A stretch of DNA of 64,000 nt from Narcine bancroftii (lineage: Eukaryota). Positions within the stretch are counted from its first letter, which is position 1, and each line of letters begins with the position of its first letter. The stretch is taken from contig NC_091473.1 of the NCBI RefSeq assembly GCF_036971445.1, positions 205,592,001 to 205,656,000 of the forward strand, written 5' to 3'. This document shows, in pieces, positions 37,177 through 64,000 of the stretch. A program made the position numbers and the translations under genes. The notes beneath the pieces are model-generated. The model saw only the letters and a program-made list of their open reading frames with translations. It searched no databases and had not been told where the DNA came from.

Positions 37177-37508
37177 AAGCATATGGAGATAACTCGTTGT
37201 CGCAAAATCATTTAAGCTGATGCTAGAAGAATAATGAAATGTAAGAATTAACTACAGTTACCCATCAGTATTTAATGACAACACTGTTATATGGTACATT
37301 TGGTGAACTGAAGAATAGTCAAAATATCTTCTTCATGTATTGAGTAATGGATTGGAAGCGTGATCACGATTCTCTAGTCCTGAGTTCAGCTGATTATCAT
37401 AAGAGTTTCAGTTTATTCCTTAAGCCATCTCTGTGATCATTGTATTTGATGCTGAAGTGTTTGTGTGTGTGCCATGACGCAGGGATGCAGCGGATCCAAA
37501 CATAGACC
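37177..37508 (+). pseudogene. Degenerate TCR V pseudogene; heptamer deleted, nonamer remnant kept
   Basis: AYGDNSLSQ...NYSYPSVFNDNTVIWYIW*TEE*SKYLLHVLSNG...DAEVF..CAM; nonamer ACATAGACC at 37500-37508; CRE at 36910. Confidence 0.78.
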
Positions 37509-40018: not shown

Positions 40019-41687
40019 GAATTTCATCGTTTTTCACGTCCGCTTGGTTTCAAAATCAGGAGAAGATATTCTTTAATTCAATCAATCCTATTCTGTAGCT
40101 GGTAAATGATTGACAATGCAAGAGATATTTTGGAATACGACGGATATTGTACCTATTGTGCATTACGGAGGAGGTGTTAGTGTTCGGTGCGTGAGCTGAC
40201 AGGAATGAAGAAAAGATAAAAGTGGAGTGAATGTCCCATCGAGATCTAAACGTGACAGATTAAATCCAGAGATCTTTTATTTCAGATTATATACAATTCT
40301 TTTCCTCTTGCCCATTTGGATTATAATGCACGTTTTACGTGGTGAGTTCATGTTTCGATGGCGTTGTTTTGATTAACTTCCTGAGTGCTCAGAGTTTAAG
40401 AATAATTATAATAGATTTATTGTCATTCATATTATACAATGTACAAATGGAGCAGTTTAGTGAACAACAGTTTGCGTTAAATTATGAATAAATATGAAAG
40501 ATATGTTTATAAAAATATTCATAATTACCATCGTGCAAAAAGATAACTGCATTACATTAGTTTCTGAGAAATGTTGTTGACGTCTTTGGCGATCATTCAA
40601 TGTATCAGTATCACTTCAGTTGAAATCCGAAACAGGACAAAGTGTAACATTGTATTGCCGTTTTATGGTAGGTCCAGTATCCGGGAGAATCAACCAAACA
40701 TCGACTATGGATATTCTGCAGAGCTGTCAGCTGATCTCATAGCCAGGTATGCTTTTTATTATCTTCATAATTCCTGTCTCCGACTTAGCCAAGCATCATT
40801 CAGTGTCTTTGAATGGCCTCTATTTTTCATTCCTTTCTTTTATTGTTAGATGGCCGGGCAATGCTCATCCTGACACTGTATGTGGCTTTCGGGAGTCGAA
40901 AGCTGGAGTTTTTCCACATTTTTAACGTGGTATCACGTGAAAATAAGGATAACATTTGAAACCAATACTGTGGCAGATCAATCATCGTTTGGAACAAATT
41001 TCAACATCAAGACAGGCCACCGAGAGACTAACGCTTACTTGATAAGCAAAAGTACCTGCCTTTCTGCGGCAAGTAATAATTTCCGTGCACTAATTAGTTG
41101 AACATTGCAGATAACAATGAATGCACTATCACTAGCTTTTATCAAGTATATTTGTGAAACAACAAAAGCTGTTACTCATAGTTTCCACATTTTTATGCCC
41201 CTTCTTTAACATGTCCAGAACTCACTCTTGCGACATTTGAAAACATAGAATTTTCATGAGCAATTACCTAATTGGCATTCTTATCTGGGTAACTACGTCG
41301 TTATAGATTCCAGCTCGAGGAATGACCTTTGTGCTGAGAAGGCGACTCTCCTTGATTCTAGCTTCCGCAGAGGGAATCATCACAGGCAAAGGATAAAGGT
41401 TCGTGCTCAAATTAATCCGGTTATGAGATACCAGATAATAATAGTCCTTTAGCTTCTATTTATAAACGCCTTTAGCTTCCTCGGGAGAAGAGCATAGATG
41501 TTATCTTCATTTCCTCACAGCAACATGATACGATTCATGTTTGATTCCAAATCTAGCATCAAATCCTCCATCTGATACATACTGATTGAAATATCCATGT
41601 ACTTCCATCAACATTTGACATAAAGTCTCCTATGCCTACCTTGACATACGTCCACATCGCTCAAAATTTCTGTGTTTTTTTTTGCAG

Positions 41688-41975
41688 GTGTCAATGGCGC
41701 CGATTCAAAGGACCGATATCCATCTGATCTGAAAGCTGAAGAATAACAAAATATAACTGAACAACAGTTACCATGCAGCACTATCTGCTTTAAGGATCTT
41801 CTGATACCCGCAGTATCCCGGAGAAACACTCGTCTATCTAGTGAAGATTTTGTCTACTGCATACAGAGGCCGGTCACCTTAATTCACAGTTAGGTGTTTT
41901 GCTGTGTATCAGAACTAAACACTATTGATACATTTTCCAAATTGCTCCGTCGTGATCTCAGCATTGTATGTGTAT
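41688..41975 (+). pseudogene. TCR V pseudogene, 3' end truncated by L1
   Basis: Acceptor tttgcag, then GVNGADSKDRYPSDLKAEE*...IF*YPQYPGETLVYLVKILST...SALYVY, running into the 3' tail of a minus-strand L1. Confidence 0.75.
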
Positions 41976-44710
41976 CTTTAAAAAAAACAACTTTATTTAA
42001 TATATTGAAAACAAAAACTTTAACAAATTGCATAATATAAAAATCAAAATTGCAAGACTTCGCAACCCATTCCACTCATCCTCAGGAAACCCCACAAGTG
42101 AAGCATTAAGAAAATAAAATAATACATACAGCAGTTTAAGATAATACTAAATTCATACATTTCAAATAAGGCGACAACATCTGAACAAAAATGTAATAAT
42201 TAGCATTCAAATTAGATGTTATTTTCTCCGTATAAATACAGGTCCTCAACTCGTTATGCCAGCGATTTACATTTATCTCAACTTCGTCTTTCGAAAAAAA
42301 TCGCAACACATTTACATGCTACAGCCAATGCTAAATATAGAAAATGCTGTCTCATATTTATCTGACCCAAAATCCAAAAATGGAGCAGGATAACCCAACA
42401 AAATATATTTTGGATCTTATAAAAGTTGGATTTTATACAAATGTTGAAGAAATTCCTTCATTATCCGCCAAAATGATTGAATTTTATCACAAAGCCAAAC
42501 GCAATGTAAGCATGTTCCTCCACATAATCCACATCTAAAACATGACTCTGAATTACTAAATCCATAACATTTTAAATTTCGCAGGGGTTAGATATAACTA
42601 ATGCACAAAATATAATTAATTATACTATATTTTACATGAAACAATTTAGTTACACCATCAAAACACATCAACTCCCAATCGACCGGATTAATATCACAAC
42701 TTAAATAATTTTTCCATTTAATCCTATATTTATCGAAATTTATTTTATCCACCTTCTCTTGTAACAACGCATTCATCTCAGAAATAAAATACTTATTTGA
42801 AAAATGAGAAATAATAAACTCAAATTTAGTTAACTGAGGAATTTTCATTTTCCTTCCAAAATTATGTTTCACTTACAGCTATGCCTTTGGCTTGGCTTCG
42901 TGGACGAAGTTTTATGGAGGGGTAATGTCCACGTCAGCTGCAGGCCTATTTGTGGCTGACAAGTCTGATGTGGGACAGGCAGACACGGTTGCAGCGGTTG
43001 CAAGGGAAAATTGGTTGGTTGGGGTTGGGTGTTGGGTTTTTCCTCCTTTGTCTTTCGAAAGTGAGGTGGGCTCTGCGGTCTTCTTTAAAGGAGGTTGCTG
43101 CCCGCCGAACCGTGAGGCGCCAAGATGCACGGTTTGAGGCAATATCAGCCCACTGGCGATGGCCAATGTGGCAGGCACCAAGAACTTTCTTTAGGCAGTC
43201 CTTGTACCTCTTCTTTGGTGCACCTCTCTCTCGGTGGCCAGTGGAGAGCTCGACATATAACACGATCTTGGGAAGGCGATGGTCCTCCATTCTGGAGACG
43301 TGACCCACCCAGCGCAGTTTGATCTTCAGCAGCGTGGATTTGATGCTGTTGGCCTCTGCCATCTCGAGTACTTCGATGTTGGAGATGAAGTCGCTCCAAT
43401 GAATGTTGAGGATGGAGTGGAGACAACGCTTGTGGAAGCGTTCTAGCGTTCACTAACGGTATAATTTGATAATAAATAAACAAAGAATTCACTGAAATTC
43501 CACATTTCTCTCTAAGCTGATTAAATGATAAAAGTTTATCCTCTTCAAAACAATCCTGCATCGAGTTTATTTTTTTTTAGTCTGCCATTCTCTTAGAAAT
43601 CTATTATTCAATGAAAAAGGAATCAATTTATTTTGGTACATTGGGGCTTGATCCGATATTTTAACTTTCGAGCCTATTAATAAATTCCTTTTAGTCCAAA
43701 TCTCTAAAAAATATTTTAAAATCGGTACGTTATATCTCCATAATAAAACAGAATTCCACTTAAATACAAATTGATGTGAATAAGGTTCCCACATACCAGG
43801 CAGTTCTACCATGGCCCAACTGGGGGTGGGGGGCACGAAACATCCAGCTTATGGTTAATAAATGTTAATTGAGCAGCTTCAAAATAATTTTGAAAATGAA
43901 TTAATTGTAAATCTCCCAAAGCATATTTAGAAGTCAATTTATGTATCACAACTCTGGCTAATTTCCCATTCCATAAAAACTCTCGAACTACTTTATTTAA
44001 ATCCTGAAAAAAAAAAATTTTTGGAACTAAACAAGGAATCGACACGAATAGATGCTGAATTCGCGGAAATATATTCATCTTAATACAAATTACTCGATCT
44101 ATTAATGAGAAAGTTAAATCCTTCCATTTAATAAAATCTGCTTTAATCTTTCTCATTAATGGTACATAGTTTAAATTATACAATGATTGAAGATTTACAT
44201 CAATCATTGTGCTTCATGACTTAATTTGATCAGTCCAACTTAGTTTAGTAATTTGTTTACACTGGTCATAATTTCGCTCTGAAATTGGTAATATTTCACT
44301 TTTTATCCCAATTCACTTTATATCCTGATAATTTATCATATTGTTCTAAACATTCTTGCAGTAAATTAAAGATAGTTCGAGATTAGTTAAATATATCAAA
44401 TCGTCATCAGGAAATAAATTAATTAATCTTCTGTTACCCTTAGAACTCTGATATTCTCATTCTGCCTAATAGCTTGAGCAAATGGTTCGATGACCAACGC
44501 AAATAGAACTGGCGACAAAGGACAATCTTGACGAGTTGAATGAGATAATTTAAAGAAAGAAGAGGTTTGACCATTTTTCGACACCCTAGCAACGGGATGA
44601 TTATATAATGCCATCATCAAACCAATAAAAAAGTGTACAAAAATATATTTTCCAAATCATTAAATAAAATATTGCATTCGACGCTTTCAAAAGCCTTTTC
44701 AGCATCTAGA
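41976..44710 (-). mobile_element. 5'-truncated L1 ORF2 (RT to 3' end) with a nested RTE
   Basis: LDAEKAF; TRQDCPLSPVLFALVIEPFA; KMNIFPRI. Confidence 0.9.
42880..43446 (-). mobile_element. RTE-clade LINE 3' fragment nested in L1
   Basis: KLRWVGHVSRMEDHRLPKIVLY...FPCNRCNRVCLSHIRLVSH; same family as 11047. Confidence 0.9.
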
Positions 44711-44988
44711 CGCCTCGGAATTGGTCGTCTATGAAAGGCAGATCGTATCACTGAGCTGCAGTTACTCGATGAGCCTGACGGCATGTTTTTGGTACATTCA
44801 TCAACCTGGTGAATCTCCCAAATATTTGCTGAACATCTACAAGTCAGGAAAGGCGATTATCCGGAGAAGATATCGGGTACATTGGAGAAAATGAGCCTGA
44901 AATCCCACCTTAACATCTCTAAAAGGCTTGTGGAGGATTCCGCCGTGTATTTCTGCGCACCGGACAGTGGCAGAATCGTTCAAAAATC
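44711..44988 (+). pseudogene. TCR V pseudogene (family of the intact V): 5'-truncated, frameshifted, heptamer deleted
   Basis: LVVYERQIVSLSCSYSMSLTACFWYIHQPGESPKYLLNIYKSG, frameshift, DYPEKISGTLEK...EDSAVYFCA; nonamer-like TCAAAAATC at 44980. Confidence 0.88.
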
Positions 44989-45744
44989 GTAGCACACGAA
45001 ATTCAACCTGACGCATTGGCTCGGGGGCGCCCTCGATAACGGAATGGAAGCGGCAGCGCGATCTTCCTGGAGAGTCTGCAGCAACGCGGAGTTGCTAGAG
45101 TTCTGCCGTCCTATCATCGTTTCTCTCTCTCTGCGTGCTCTGTGTCTGGGGGTGGGAGGTTGTACGTCATGAAGAAATAGACAGCTATTTTCTCGTATTT
45201 TGTACTTAAACGAAGGAGTGTTGGTTAGATAGAAGGAAGGGAGAGATTAGCACTACTCTCGGAAGGTTAAAAAAAATGTAAAAGGGAGTCGCGTCTAAAC
45301 ACAACGGGAGAAGCGGCGAGGGGGCCCAGGAAAATAAGAGAAGGTGATATGAAGGGATCAGCAAGTGTGAAGAAGATAAAGACGTGGGCAGTGTAAATGT
45401 AGACGTAGAAATACGAGCGGAAATGACTGAGAATGAGAAGAGCCAACATTAATACCCAGATTTCATTGGTCCAGGAACGGCGCCCTCTTGAGCCGATGTG
45501 CGATGTGGGCGCCCTCCTGTGTGTCCTTGAGGATGGATCGCCACTGACGCGACCCTACACTCTTATATCGGGTAAAATGTTGAATTAATCGCTGTTTATC
45601 TTCATCCTGGCTTCATCCCCATTCATTTGTTTGCTGATTCTGTGGGCCGTTCGATTTGGCGAGCCTCTGACCTATTAGTCAGGGCGTGTCCCTACCGGCT
45701 CAGCGCAATTCCTTGCATATCCTGTACTGCCTGCTACGTTCCAG

Positions 45745-46469: not shown

Positions 46470-47266
46470 ATGAGTGTTTTGTGTTGTTTGCCGATTCTTT
46501 GGGTTGTTTTGACTGGTAAGCCTGTCCCATTGGTCACCGAACTCTGTCCATTCCTCGTACTCGACGTGTCTTTAACTTTAACATAAGTAAAGTTAGATGA
46601 TTTCCCCCAAGAATCACACTCCTTAGCTGTCCCTCCGTTTACTCGTTCACTGTCTACTTACTGATCTACATCGCGCGTCCCCTACCCCCTTTCTCTCTAT
46701 CCATATCGCTCCTCGCCGCTCTAATGAGAGAGAAACAAACCCGGTCTCCAATAGAGGTTTTTCAGCATCCAACGTTAGCTTGCGACCTTGTGTCGGGTGA
46801 GCATTTGGAAAATTTCTTTCTTCCGAATTGAGGCCGGAAATCATGTTCCTCCTGAAGATCTGGCAGATTGTAAGGGCCGTTCACCCAACTGAGACAGATT
46901 CGTCAACAAGTGCCGTGCGGGTTCAGTGCCGTCTAACGGCGTTCACTCATTCTGCTTTGTTCCAGGGGCGAGTGCGAATGATTCAGTAACCCAAAGACCG
47001 CCGCAAATAATCGTTGATGAAGGGCAGATTGTGGAACTGAACTGTAGTTACTCGATGAGCCCCTATGCTTATTTTTGGTACATTCAACATCCCGGAGAAT
47101 CACCAAAATATTTGCTGAAAATCCAGACGTCAGGACAGGTGGTTCCTTCTCGCGATTGCCCTGAGAGGATATCGGGTTCCTTAGAGAAAACGAGCCAGAG
47201 ATTTCACCTCAATATCTCACAAATCCGCGTGGAGGATTCCGCCGTGTATCTCTGTGCCGTGGAGCT
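46470..47266 (+). CDS. TRAV: Intact TCR V gene segment (alpha/delta-type): leader exon 46470-46515, intron 46516-46965, V exon 46966-47266
   Basis: Leader MSVLCCLPILWVVLT-G followed by gtaag. Phase-1 acceptor ttccag. Open V exon ASANDSVTQ...ELNCSY...YFWYIQHPGESPKYLLKI...EDSAVYLCAVE with Cys23, Trp41 and Cys104, then a 23-RSS. TRAV vs TRDV cannot be settled without J/C. Confidence 0.9.
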
Positions 47267-47305
47267 CACGCTGTTCCAGGGCGGTGGGGGTTCTGTACAA
47301 AAACT
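47267..47305 (+). promoter_or_regulatory. 23-spacer recombination signal sequence of the intact V
   Basis: CACGCTG + 23 nt (ttccagggcggtgggggttctgt) + ACAAAAACT. Confidence 0.92.
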
Positions 47306-49222: not shown

Positions 49223-50038
49223 ATATTCTTCCTGAGTGGTTTGGTGATTCTTTGGGCCGTTCTAACTGGTGAGCCTGTCTGACTAGTCAGTGAACTCTGC
49301 CACTGCTCTTTTTCTACGAATCTCTAGCTTTAACCTAATTAAAGACAGACAATTTCCCAAATCCTTTCGCTATCCCTTGCACGTTCTTCCTCCGCTTACT
49401 AATTTACCCACTCTTTGTGTTTACTGAACTTCCTCGCAGTTTCACTGTTGCTCTCCATCACCCCTCTCTCGCTCTTCGCCGTTTTCGTGCGAGGGTAACC
49501 GCGACACAAAGAGAGTTTCTGTTGCTTCCGACGTTGGTATGGTCGAGGATTTGTAAAATATCCTTCTTCCGAATTTAGACTGGCCATCATGTTACTACTG
49601 ATTTGATGGCCGATTCTATGCACCGTTCCGCATGTTGAGACTAATTGGTCAACTAGTGCCGCGCGGGTTCAGTGCCATCCAGCCACGTTCACTTATTTTG
49701 TTTCGGTCCAGGGGCGAGGTCGAAGGATTTAGTGACACAAAGCCCGCCGCAAATGATAGTGGATGAAGGACAGATCGTATCAATGAGCTGTAGTTACTTG
49801 ATTAGCACCGACACTAATTTGTGGTACATTCAACATCCCGGAGAAACTCCTAATTATTTGCTGACAATCTACACGTCCCAAGTCGTCGTTCAGGCTCACG
49901 ATTGTCCTGAGAGAATATCGCGGTGTTGGGTGAAAAAGAAAATGAAATCCCACCTCAATATCTCAGAAAGCCTTGTGCAGGATTCCGTAGTGTATCTCAC
50001 GCAGCTGCACGGCAGTGGCCGATCCACACACAAAAAAA
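49223..50038 (+). pseudogene. TCR V pseudogene: leader start ATG>ATA (49223-49268); V exon from 49712 lacks Cys104
   Basis: KDLVTQSPPQMIVDEGQIVSMSCSY...LWYIQHPGETPNYLLTI...QDSVVY runs directly into CACGCAG (49998); 15-nt deletion relative to the intact paralogue. Confidence 0.9.
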
Positions 50039-60135: not shown

Positions 60136-61934
60136 TAATCCCAAAATACATAATCCCGTTCTTCAGTTGGCTGTGATGATTTCTTGTTGATGTACAGGTG
60201 CTTGTAATTCCTACCATTGGGAACTACAAAGTTGAAGGAAAGAAAAAGATGAAAATCAATCTTCCAATGAGAGGAAGAAGTAAAGAATAAATGGACAGAG
60301 TAAAAGAGGACATGATCCTTGAGCCACAGCACACTCTCGACGAAACCATTTAGCTCGACATTCCTTCGACTTAATGTTGTTTGTTGCCAGAGTTGCAAAG
60401 TGGAAGGTCTCCATGTCACACCTCATTTGCAGCCTCGGTGAAGATATTTGCGTTGCACACTGAAAGTAAACGGAGTGAATGTCCCATCGAGATCTAAACG
60501 TGACAGATTAAATCCAGAGATCTTTTATTTCAGATTATATACAATTCTTTTCCTCTTGCCCATTTGGATTATAATGCACGTTTTACGTGGTGAGTTCATG
60601 TTTCGATGGCGTTGTTTTGATTAACTTCCTGAGTGCTCAGAGTTTAAGAATAATTATAATAGATTTATTGTCATTCATATTATACAATGTACAAATGGAG
60701 CAGTTTAGTGAACAACAGTATGCGTTAAATTATGAATAAATATGAAAGATATGTTTATAAAATATTCATAATTACCATCGTGCAAAAAGATAACTGCATT
60801 ACATTAGTTTCTGAGAAATGTTGTTGACGTCTTTGGCGATCATTCAATGTATCAGTATCACTTCAGTTGAAATCCGAAACAGGACAAAGTGTAACATTGT
60901 ATTGCCGTTTTATGGTAGGTCCAGTATCCGGGAGAATCAACCAAACATCGACTATGGATATTCTGCAGAGCTGTCAGCTGATCTCATAGCCAGGTATGCT
61001 TTTTATTATCTTCATAATTCCTGTCTCCGACTTAGCCAAGCATCATTCAGTGTCTTTGAATGGCCTCTATTTTTCATTCCTTTCTTTTATTGTTAGATGG
61101 CCGGGCAATGCTCATCCTGACACTGTATGTGGCTTTCGGGAGTCGAAAGCTGGAGTTTTTCCACATTTTTAACGTGGTATCACGTGAAAATAAGGATAAC
61201 ATTTGAAACCAATACTGTGGCAGATCAATCATCGTTTGGAACAAATTTCAACATCAAGACAGGCCACCGAGAGACTAACGCTTACTTGATAAGCAAAAGT
61301 ACCTGCCTTTCTGCGGCAAGTAATAATTTCCGTGCACTAATTAGTTGAACATTGCAGATAACAATGAATGCACTATCACTAGCTTTTATCAAGTATATTT
61401 GTGAAACAACAAAAGCTGTTACTCATAGTTTCCACATTTTTATGCCCCTTCTTTAACATGTCCAGAACTCACTCTTGCGACATTTGAAAACATAGAATTT
61501 TCATGAGCAATTACCTAATTGGCATTCTTATCTGGGTAACTACGTCGTTATATATTCCAGCTCGAGGAATGACCTTTGTGCTGAGAAGGCGACTCTCCTT
61601 GATTCTAGCTTCCGCAGAGGGAATCATCACAGGCAAAGGATAAAGGTTCGTGCTCAAATTAATCCGGTTATGAGATACCAGATAATAATAGTCCTTTAGC
61701 TTCTATTTATAAACGCCTTTAGCTTCCTCGGGAGAAGAGCATAGATGTTATCTTCATTTCCTCACAGCAACATGATACGATTCATGTTTGATTCCAAATC
61801 TAGCATCAAATCCTCCATCTGATACATACTGATTGAAATATCCATGTACTTCCATCAACATTTGACATAAAGTCTCCTATGCCTACCTTGACATACGTCC
61901 ACATCGCTCAAAATTTCTGTGTTTTTTTTTGCAG

Positions 61935-62222
61935 GTGTCAATGGCGCCGATTCAAAGGACCGATATCCATCTGATCTGAAAGCTGAAGAATAACAAAATA
62001 TAACTGAACAACAGTTACCATGCAGCACTATCTGCTTTAAGGATCTTCTGATACCCGCAGTATCCCGGAGAAACACTCGTCTATCTAGTGAAGATTTTGT
62101 CTACTGCATACAGAGGCCGGTCACCTTAATTCACAGTTAGGTGTTTTGCTGTGTATCAGAACTAAACACTATTGATACATTTTCCACATTGCTCCGTCGT
62201 GATCTCAGCATTGTATGTGTAT
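61935..62222 (+). pseudogene. Duplicate of the V pseudogene at 41688-41975
   Basis: Near-identical sequence at offset 20247. Confidence 0.75.
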
Positions 62223-64000
62223 CTTTAAAAAAAACAACTTTATTTAATATATTGAAAACAAAAACTTTAACAAATTGCATAATATAAAAATCAAAATTGC
62301 AAGACTTCGCAACCCATTCCACTCATCCTCAGGAAACCCCACAAGTGAAGCATTAAGAAAATAAAATAATACATACAGCAGTTTAAGATAATACTAAATT
62401 CATACATTTCAAATATGGCGACAACATCTGAACAAAAATGTAATAATTAGCATTCAAATTATATGTTATTTTCTCCGTATAAATACAGGTCCTCAACTCG
62501 TTATGCCAGCGATTTACATTTATCTCAACTTCGTCTTTCGAAAAAAATCGCAACACATTTACATGCTACAGCCAATGCTAAATATAGAAAATGCTGTCTC
62601 ATATTTATCTGACCCAAAATCCAAAAATGGAGCAGGATAACCCAACAAAATATATTTTGGATCTTATAAAAGTTGGATTTTATACAAATGTTGAAGAAAT
62701 TCCTTCATTATCCGCCAAAATGATTGAATTTTATCACAAAGCCAAACGCAATGTAAGCATGTTCCTCCACATAATCCACATCTAAAACACGACTCTGAAT
62801 TACTAAATCCATAACATTTTAAATTTCGCAGGGGTTAGATATAACTAATGCACAAAATATAATTAATTATACTATATTTTACATGAAACAATTTAGTTAC
62901 ACCATCAAAACACATCAACTCCCAATCGACCGGATTAATATCACAACTTAAATAATTTTTCCATTTAATCCTATATTTATCGAAATTTATTTTATCCACC
63001 TTCTCTTGTAACAACGCATTTATCTCAGAAATAAAATACTTATTTGAAAAATGAGAAATAATAAACTCAAATTTAGTTAACTGAGGAATTTTCATTTTCC
63101 TTCCAAAATTATGTTTCACTTACAGCTATGCCTTTGGCTTGGCTTCGTGGACGAAGTTTTATGGAGGGGTAATGTCCACGTCAGCTGCAGGCTTATTTGT
63201 GGCTGACAAGTCTGATGTGGGACAGGCAGACACGGTTGCAGCGGTTGCAAGGGAAAATTGGTTGGTTGGGGTTGGGTGTTGGGTTTTTCCTCCTTTGTCT
63301 TTCGAAAGTGAGGTGGGCTCTGCGGTCTTCTTTAAAGGAGGTTGCTGCCCGCCGAACCGTGAGGCGCCAAGATGCACGGTTTGAGGCAATATCAGCCCAC
63401 TGGCGATGGCCAATGTGGCAGGCACCAAGAACTTTCTTTAGGCAGTCCTTGTACCTCTTCTTTGGTGCACCTCTCTCTCGGTGGCCAGTGGAGAGCTCGA
63501 CATATAACACGATCTTGGGAAGGCGATGGTCCTCCATTCTGGAGACGTGACCCACCCAGCGCAGTTTGATCTTCAGCAGCGTGGATTTGATGCTGTTGGC
63601 CTCTGCCATCTCGAGTACTTCGATGTTGGAGATGAAGTCGCTCCAATGAATGTTGAGGATGGAGTGGAGACAACGCTTGTGGAAGCGTTCTAGCGTTCAC
63701 TAACGGTATAATTTGATAATAAATAAACAAAGAATTCACTGAAATTCCACATTTCTCTCTAAGCTGATTAAATGATAAAAGTTTATCCTCTTCAAAACAA
63801 TCCTGCATCGAGTTTATTTTTTTTTAGTCTGCCATTCTCTTAGAAATCTATTATTCAATGAAAAAGGAATCAATTTATTTTGGTACATTGGGGCTTGATC
63901 CGATATTTTAACTTTCGAGCCTATTAATAAATTCCTTTTAGTCCAAATCTCTAAAAAATATTTTAAAATCGGTACGTTATATCTCCATAATAAAACAGAA
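62223..64000 (-). mobile_element. Duplicate of the L1 + RTE at 41976-43753 (RTE ~63127-63693)
   Basis: Near-identical ORFs at offset 20247. Confidence 0.9.

What the first reader, a model, noticed from the sequence alone, without database searches (positions are those of the whole stretch)
49985..50038. V-RSS junction scar resembling a germline RAG open-and-shut joint
Seen: the intact paralogue reads TATCTCTGTGCCGTGGAGCT|CACGCTG, whereas this V reads TATCT|CACGCAG. 15 nt of coding end are lost and the heptamer is retained flush (3-nt CTC microhomology). Established: RAG cuts at this border, open-and-shut joints lose coding-end bases, and cartilaginous fish have germline-joined Ig genes attributed to RAG activity in germ cells. 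Inference: this is a fixed germline RAG scar in a TCR V, a possible route of V-gene death.
Basis: partly seen in the sequence, partly recalled or inferred. Interest (0 to 1): 0.72.

Follow-up and report, generated by a model that had tools for sequence, protein, structure and literature searches.

The report
Old deletion at T-cell-receptor cut site
One old 15-base deletion, since copied into 15 dead T-cell-receptor V genes of a cartilaginous fish, ends where the RAG enzyme cuts in lymphocytes; it is most likely an ordinary repair or slippage deletion, but such deletions are about three times too common at that border across the locus, so RAG cutting in germ cells stays possible.

Summary
The 15-nt deletion is real (TATCT|CACGCAG, 49997/49998) and removes the second Ig cysteine. 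It is one ancestral event shared by 15 monophyletic V copies, so it is inherited, and it is their only shared stop, frameshift or splice-type lesion. The 3-nt CTC microhomology depends on the comparator: the nearer sister lineage gives 1 nt.

7 of 38 independent deletions of 5 nt or more touch the cut site (2.2 expected, p=0.005; 6 of 37 without this one, p=0.017). RAG-specific signs are missing. 0 of 82 small indels are flush. 2 of the 7 lie on dead heptamers (2/13 against 5/25 on live ones). None has P/N bases. Flushness given a border hit is not significant (p=0.08-0.19). No signal joint or joined VJ was found. My hairpin and selection explanations for the excess also failed their tests.

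Verdict: ordinary deletion about 0.65; germline RAG break about 0.25. The scan noted similar RSS deletions in another genome (e1-9517522).

The parts
49223..49268 (+). Leader exon of the scarred V; start codon reads ATA in this copy (ATG in most sister copies), GT donor intact
   Evidence: sequence
49712..49997 (+). Scarred V exon (TCR alpha/delta-like V pseudogene), frame open, Cys23 and Trp41 kept, Cys104 and the last codons lost
   Evidence: (V-set E=1.7e-5)
49993..50004 (+). Deletion junction TATCT|CACGCAG; 15 nt missing, no inserted bases, 1 nt (or 3 nt) microhomology
49998..50038 (+). Degenerate 23-spacer RSS (heptamer CACGCAG, 23-25 nt spacer, A-rich nonamer)
46470..47305 (+).
44725..44990 (+). 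Second V pseudogene with an independent 18-nt deletion spanning the cut site (-9..+9), junction at 44958/44959
37469..37482 (+). Junction of an independent 10-12-nt deletion spanning the cut site (8 copies in the locus)
6364..6378 (+). Junction of an independent 19-nt deletion spanning the cut site in a lineage whose heptamer had lost its first C

Best explanation
A single 15-base germline deletion removed the second cysteine of a T-cell-receptor V gene and was then copied into 15 pseudogenes; it most likely arose by ordinary microhomology-assisted repair or replication slippage at a deletion-prone border rather than by RAG. Shown: one event, inherited, local (both sides come from the same lineage), no added bases, 1-3 nt overlap, a size typical for this locus, and a roughly 3-fold excess of such deletions at the V/heptamer border. 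Inferred: the repair route; that this was the killing lesion; that the border excess is RAG-independent. Its cause is unexplained, since the hairpin and selection tests gave no support.
For: Size 15 nt against a median of 13 for non-border deletions; microhomology of 1 nt or more in 17 of 31 non-border deletions. 0 of 82 small (1-4 nt) gap signatures are flush with the cut site. The Cys-to-heptamer distance is 14 nt in 44 of 46 intact V and in 53 of the 58 non-intact V where it could be measured (66 others not measurable). Border hits on CAC-dead comparators 2 of 13 against 5 of 25 on CAC-live ones, Fisher p=1.0; one of the two has no RSS left at all, the other is nested in an AAC/AGC clade. 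Five more deletions have an end within 15 nt of the border but do not touch it, and an 8-nt tandem duplication straddles it in V205805793; a RAG cut at the border explains none of these. An internal site at about -113 collects 3 deletion ends with 2-4 nt microhomology. No signal joint, head-to-head RSS or joined VJ in 1.656 Mb; no signal-joint pattern in the genome search. No P/N bases at any of the 7 border junctions.
Against: The border excess is real at face value: 7 of 38 (blind caller) or 7 of 40 (curated) against 2.2-2.3 expected, p=0.005-0.006; 6 of 37 without the finding, p=0.017. Positions 0 and +1 are the only 2 of 321 sites with coverage 7, and weighting by available microhomology does not remove the excess. 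3 of 5 live-heptamer events have one end compatible with the cut (unconditional p=0.002; 2 of 24 without the finding, p=0.021). With the nearer comparator the overlap is only 1 nt, so slippage has little to work with. The border has the most stable mean DNA hairpin of 32 windows (-4.9 kcal/mol), but non-border deletions do not prefer stable hairpins (mean percentile 0.45, n=29, p=0.44). The dead-heptamer class is small, not itself significantly enriched (p=0.17), and defined by the comparator's present heptamer.
Confidence: 0.65

Rival explanations
1. RAG cut the V/heptamer border in a germ cell or early embryo and the ends were rejoined in place, probably by resection-type end joining rather than lymphocyte-type NHEJ, which would explain 12-19 nt losses with 1-3 nt overlap and no small trims.
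For: Border excess. Right end flush in this event and in V206432018, left end flush in V205241093. Both sides of the scar group with the same lineage, as an open-and-shut joint requires. Germline RAG-type joining without TdT signs is documented for nurse shark IgL (PMC2193156, part 1 of 7 and passages). RAG can open and shut single or 23/23 signals (PMC2213516 passages).
Against: No small flush trims or P bases. Flushness given a border hit p=0.08, or 0.19 without the finding. Dead-heptamer hits. No signal, hybrid or joined products in the stretch read. Published germline joints lose only a few bases. About 10 missed mid-exon deletions would lift the finding-free p above 0.05.
Confidence: 0.25
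2. Selection or calling bias: lesions that silence the RSS of a dead V are kept more often, or deletions are easier to call at the conserved FR3-end/RSS block, and this event is one chance member.
For: 5 of the 7 border events destroy or overlap the heptamer (one of these on an already replaced RSS). Old families align to intact V at only about 65%, so mid-exon events can be missed. Maximum coverage of 7 or more somewhere along the V arises in 28% of simulations.
Against: CAC is not preferentially mutated in 24 young non-intact V (6 of 66 against 614 of 7004 exon sites). The blind caller with fixed 80% flanks returned the same 7 events. The site was named in advance. This event keeps the heptamer.
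Confidence: 0.08
3. Assembly error, a somatic lymphocyte rearrangement captured in the assembly, or a hybrid joint between two V genes.
For: None found; the clade's 5' half does resemble the A1 lineage and its 3' end the A2 lineage.
Against: 15 copies, 80-100% identical to the window copy, share the junction; an X1 contig spans it; the A1/A2 switch lies about 170 nt upstream of the scar and both flanks are nearest A2.
Confidence: 0.02

Closest known systems
Open-and-shut joint of V(D)J recombination (PMC2213516 and PMC2193590 passages; the primary Lewis and Hesse paper was not held)
   Same: Coding end and signal end of one segment lie joined at the heptamer border with coding bases lost.
   Different: Known from lymphocytes, plasmid substrates and in vitro. 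Here the loss is 14-15 nt, there are no P/N bases, there is no population of small trims, and RAG dependence is not shown.
Germline-joined NS4 IgL genes of nurse shark (PMC2193156) and the germline hybrid joint of horn shark IgH (PMC2193153, parts 1-2 of 3 read)
   Same: Inherited change at an RSS border in a cartilaginous fish, without N addition.
   Different: Those remove or swap RSSs between two segments, lose only a few bases and show P nucleotides. Here a TCR V keeps its own RSS and nothing is joined.
Ordinary microhomology-associated germline deletions in V pseudogenes (31 non-border examples in this locus)
   Same: Size, absence of insertion, 0-4 nt overlap as a rule, spread by tandem duplication.
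   Different: Position at the RAG cut site, where deletions are about 3-fold enriched.
Germline rearranged TCR sequences reported in channel catfish (PMC6170632, abstract and outline only)
   Same: A claim of RAG-made TCR sequence in the germline.
   Different: Complete VDJ joins, ascribed to transposition from T cells; not single-site scars.

Membership tests
RAG open-and-shut joint | One end at the heptamer border of a usable RSS | tested here: inconclusive
   Right end at 0 or +1 (A2 comparator) or -2..+1 (A1-type); undeleted relatives have CAC heptamers and a 23-nt spacer.
RAG open-and-shut joint | Coding and signal ends from the same segment (not a hybrid) | tested here: met
   FR3 end, RSS and 3' flank are all nearest the A2 lineage by identity; the 3' tree agrees, the FR3-only tree is unresolved.
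RAG open-and-shut joint | Hairpin-type processing: small coding loss, P or N bases | tested here: not met
   14-15 nt lost, no added bases; 0 of 82 small indels flush in the locus.
RAG open-and-shut joint | Restricted to intact RSS | tested here: inconclusive
   2 of 13 border hits on dead against 5 of 25 on live comparators, p=1.0, small numbers.
RAG open-and-shut joint | RAG1/2 active in the cell where it arose | not testable with these tools
   Needs germ-cell expression and de novo events.
Germline-joined V(D)J gene | RSS excised and V fused to D or J | tested here: not met
   RSS retained; no V followed by a J motif among 202 V-like segments.
Microhomology-associated deletion | Short direct overlap at the junction, no insertion | tested here: met
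   1 nt or 3 nt by comparator; a 1-nt overlap is common by chance (28% of placements).
TCR alpha/delta V pseudogene | V-set exon with leader and 23-RSS in a tandem V array, inactivated | tested here: met
   Cys104 lost.
TCR alpha/delta V pseudogene | Linked J and C-alpha/C-delta exons | tested here: inconclusive
   No J found in the array or in the next 130 kb; the C-alpha family search rang nowhere. The label rests on TCR-alpha chains among the PDB hits and on recalled locus architecture.

The most novel reading that the evidence does not exclude
RAG cuts TCR V recombination signals in the germ line of cartilaginous fish, the breaks are closed by resection-type end joining, and this recurrent mutagen (5 independent events in one locus) is a route by which V genes die.
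Probability: 0.25. Interest if true: 0.72.

Novelty: new member of a known kind. Interest (0 to 1): 0.33.

Why it matters
As an ordinary deletion it is one more V pseudogene clade. The locus-wide excess of deletions at the RAG cut site is the part worth keeping: it is a cheap, genome-only test of the old proposal that RAG still reshapes shark and ray genomes, and it would extend that proposal from Ig joins to single-site damage at TCR genes. My searches (titles and abstract starts seen) listed no paper on germline open-and-shut scars or on deletion clustering at V/RSS borders; the library lacks most subscription papers.

Tried and rejected
Hairpin fragility as the cause: the border window is the most stable on average, but non-border deletions show no preference. 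A quasi-palindrome correction in the sister lineage (my note): the same TAT-to-TGT change occurs in family-B copies without the second arm, so it was dropped. Selection for RSS loss: CAC is not over-mutated. Replicate locus: 150 kb of C5 holds 8 young, near-identical V and no pseudogene set. Dating by a second species: run X5 (organism B) has a contig that runs to 50009 and continues like the L005-type scarred copies, but X5 also holds short pieces identical to the window at depth 2-5, and X6/X7 of the same sample hold none, so cross-species sharing is not established. Expression: no RNA holder was listed; three RNA-guess runs cover the intact V exon and not the scarred one, which is no evidence of silence. 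pN/pS within the scarred clade is 0.43-1.29 on four non-independent pairs, uninformative. Lenient local alignment was too noisy for counting. The curated 'flush-either' p used tied placements and is too liberal; the blind values are the ones used. PMC2118463 and PMC5931798 passages gave no trimming distribution. No supplements were read; junction data there could bear on the trimming argument.

Full report
OBSERVATION. The window is G000:C11:205592001-205656000. The paralogue string lies at 47247-47273 and the short form at 49993-50004. The scarred segment has a leader (49223-49268, ATA for ATG in this copy), an acceptor, an open V-set exon (Pfam V-set E=1.7e-5) that stops at ...DSVVYL, and a degenerate 23-RSS. 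Fifteen nucleotides including Cys104 are missing, with no added bases.

LOCUS. The segment lies in an array of about 200 V-like pieces over 1.6 Mb (202 clusters). 46 are intact by ORF and RSS, all with 22-23-nt spacers. TCR-alpha chains are among the PDB hits and the closest named protein is from little skate, 50% identical; an earlier scan note calls this genome a ray (e1-9242564, unchecked). J and C exons were not reached, so 'TCR alpha/delta' is inferred. The intact paralogue is spliced, and one RNA-guess contig follows it to exactly 47266.

ONE EVENT, INHERITED. 15 of 37 genomic matches share the junction. They form one clade with support 100, a stem of 0.09-0.11 and about 0.1 substitutions per site from its root to the tips. 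A somatic joint or an assembly slip cannot give this. No stop, frameshift or splice lesion is shared by all 15; V205537125 still has an intact leader, donor, acceptor and frame (no leader motif was found for 2 of the 15). Twelve shared amino-acid-changing differences (for example G71R, A93V) also mark the clade, so the deletion is plausibly, not provably, the first lethal hit.

COMPARATOR. Around the scar both flanks are nearest the A2 lineage (...CA|CAC; 3' tree support 96, FR3-only tree unresolved). Against A2 the overlap is 1 nt and the right end is at 0 or +1; against A1 it is 3 nt and -2..+1. The outgroups read CT, so the ancestral state is open. In a RAG cut the CT stays on the coding end, so a 3-nt overlap would favour slippage. 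A 1-nt overlap is neutral (28% of random placements).

Of 202 segments, 168 in lineages with a recognisable border were kept; 34 were dropped because the border is lost or unalignable. A blind caller (4470 pairwise alignments, gaps of 5 nt or more, both 20-nt flanks at least 80% identical, polarised by an intact V) gave 45 calls in -300..+39. Seven were repeats of one event against nested comparators, leaving 38. Seven touch the cut site, 2.21 expected, p=0.005; without the finding 6 of 37, p=0.017. A hand-curated set of 40 gave the same seven (p=0.006; 0.005 when weighted for microhomology), and 12 of 40 had an end within +/-15 bp (5.5 expected, p=0.006). Four of the seven lie in this window (6372, 37478, 44959, 49998). 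Caveats: 10 missed mid-exon events would lift the finding-free p to 0.055, and a peak of 7 somewhere along the V occurs in 28% of simulations, though this site was chosen in advance.

IS THE EXCESS RAG? For: 3 of 5 events on live heptamers have an end compatible with the cut. Germline RAG-type joining without TdT signs is documented in nurse shark IgL (PMC2193156), and a germline hybrid joint in horn shark (PMC2193153). Against: given a border hit, flushness is expected 1.2 times in 5 (p=0.08; 0.19 without the finding). No small trims exist: 0 of 82 gap signatures of 1-4 nt are flush (their polarity is partly unknown), and the Cys-to-heptamer distance stays 14 nt in 44 of 46 intact and 53 of 58 measurable non-intact V. 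Lymphocyte-type repair should make these the majority (established knowledge; human V trimming is modelled from -2 to 14 nt, PMC11963759 passage). Two border events arose where CAC was gone, at a similar rate (2/13 against 5/25). Five deletions end near but not at the border, and a tandem duplication straddles it. No P/N bases, signal joints or joined VJ were seen.

OTHER CAUSES. The border has the most stable mean hairpin, but other deletions do not follow hairpins. CAC is not over-mutated in young pseudogenes. So the excess is not explained by either rival I could test; this is reported as unexplained.

MECHANISM. Most likely (0.65, inferred): a break or polymerase slip in the CA/TG-rich last codons was closed with a 1-3 nt overlap, removed Cys104, and the dead gene was multiplied with its cassette. 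Second (0.25): a germline RAG break closed by resection-type joining. The figures are my judgement, not a computed posterior.

NOVELTY. As an object it is a new V pseudogene clade. It is not filed as an open-and-shut joint, because the processing signature was tested and not met. The scan has noted RSS-border lesions in another genome with a similar verdict (e1-9517522, e1-9327943; AI notes, not checked here, not independent support). The border excess is the result to follow up across species.

Noticed in passing
G000:C11 V205782270 (about 205782270-205782600): An 11-nt spacer deletion (3-nt overlap) turns this pseudogene's 23-RSS into a 12-RSS with a nonamer 2 mismatches from consensus.
   Followed up: partly
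G000:C11 family-B V segments (e.g. V205285433, V205909704, V206189441): Nine members have a nonamer-like 9-mer at 12-nt spacing (2 mismatches) that scores better than the one at 23 nt (3-5 mismatches); a possible dual or misassigned RSS.
   Followed up: no
window 40224-43753 vs 60472-64000; L001/L002: A recent tandem duplication of about 20.25 kb (99.7-100% identical) doubles this V cassette; it may be real or a retained haplotype.
   Followed up: no
G000:C11:206490545-206490823 (-): An inverted intact V has 22 nt between Cys104 and the heptamer, against 14 in 44 of 46; no close relative to compare.
   Followed up: no
G000:C11 V205805793: An 8-nt tandem duplication straddles the V/heptamer border.
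   Followed up: partly
family A, about 113 nt before the heptamer: Three independent deletions (91, 18, 13 nt) end at the same site with 2-4 nt overlap: an internal hotspot.
   Followed up: partly
G000:C11 V205799370: Chimeric V: 5' half like the scarred clade (91-94%), 3' half like the A1 lineage, undeleted.
   Followed up: partly
G000:C11 family 8 (7 copies, e.g. V205633739; window about 41.7-42 kb): V homology stops about 15-20 nt before the heptamer position and is followed by an A/T-rich tail-like sequence, possibly an antisense retroelement end (label recalled).
   Followed up: no
G000:C11:206414295 and 206414850: Two extra copies of a V 3' end with its full RSS follow the intact V206413491 at about 555-bp spacing.
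   Followed up: no
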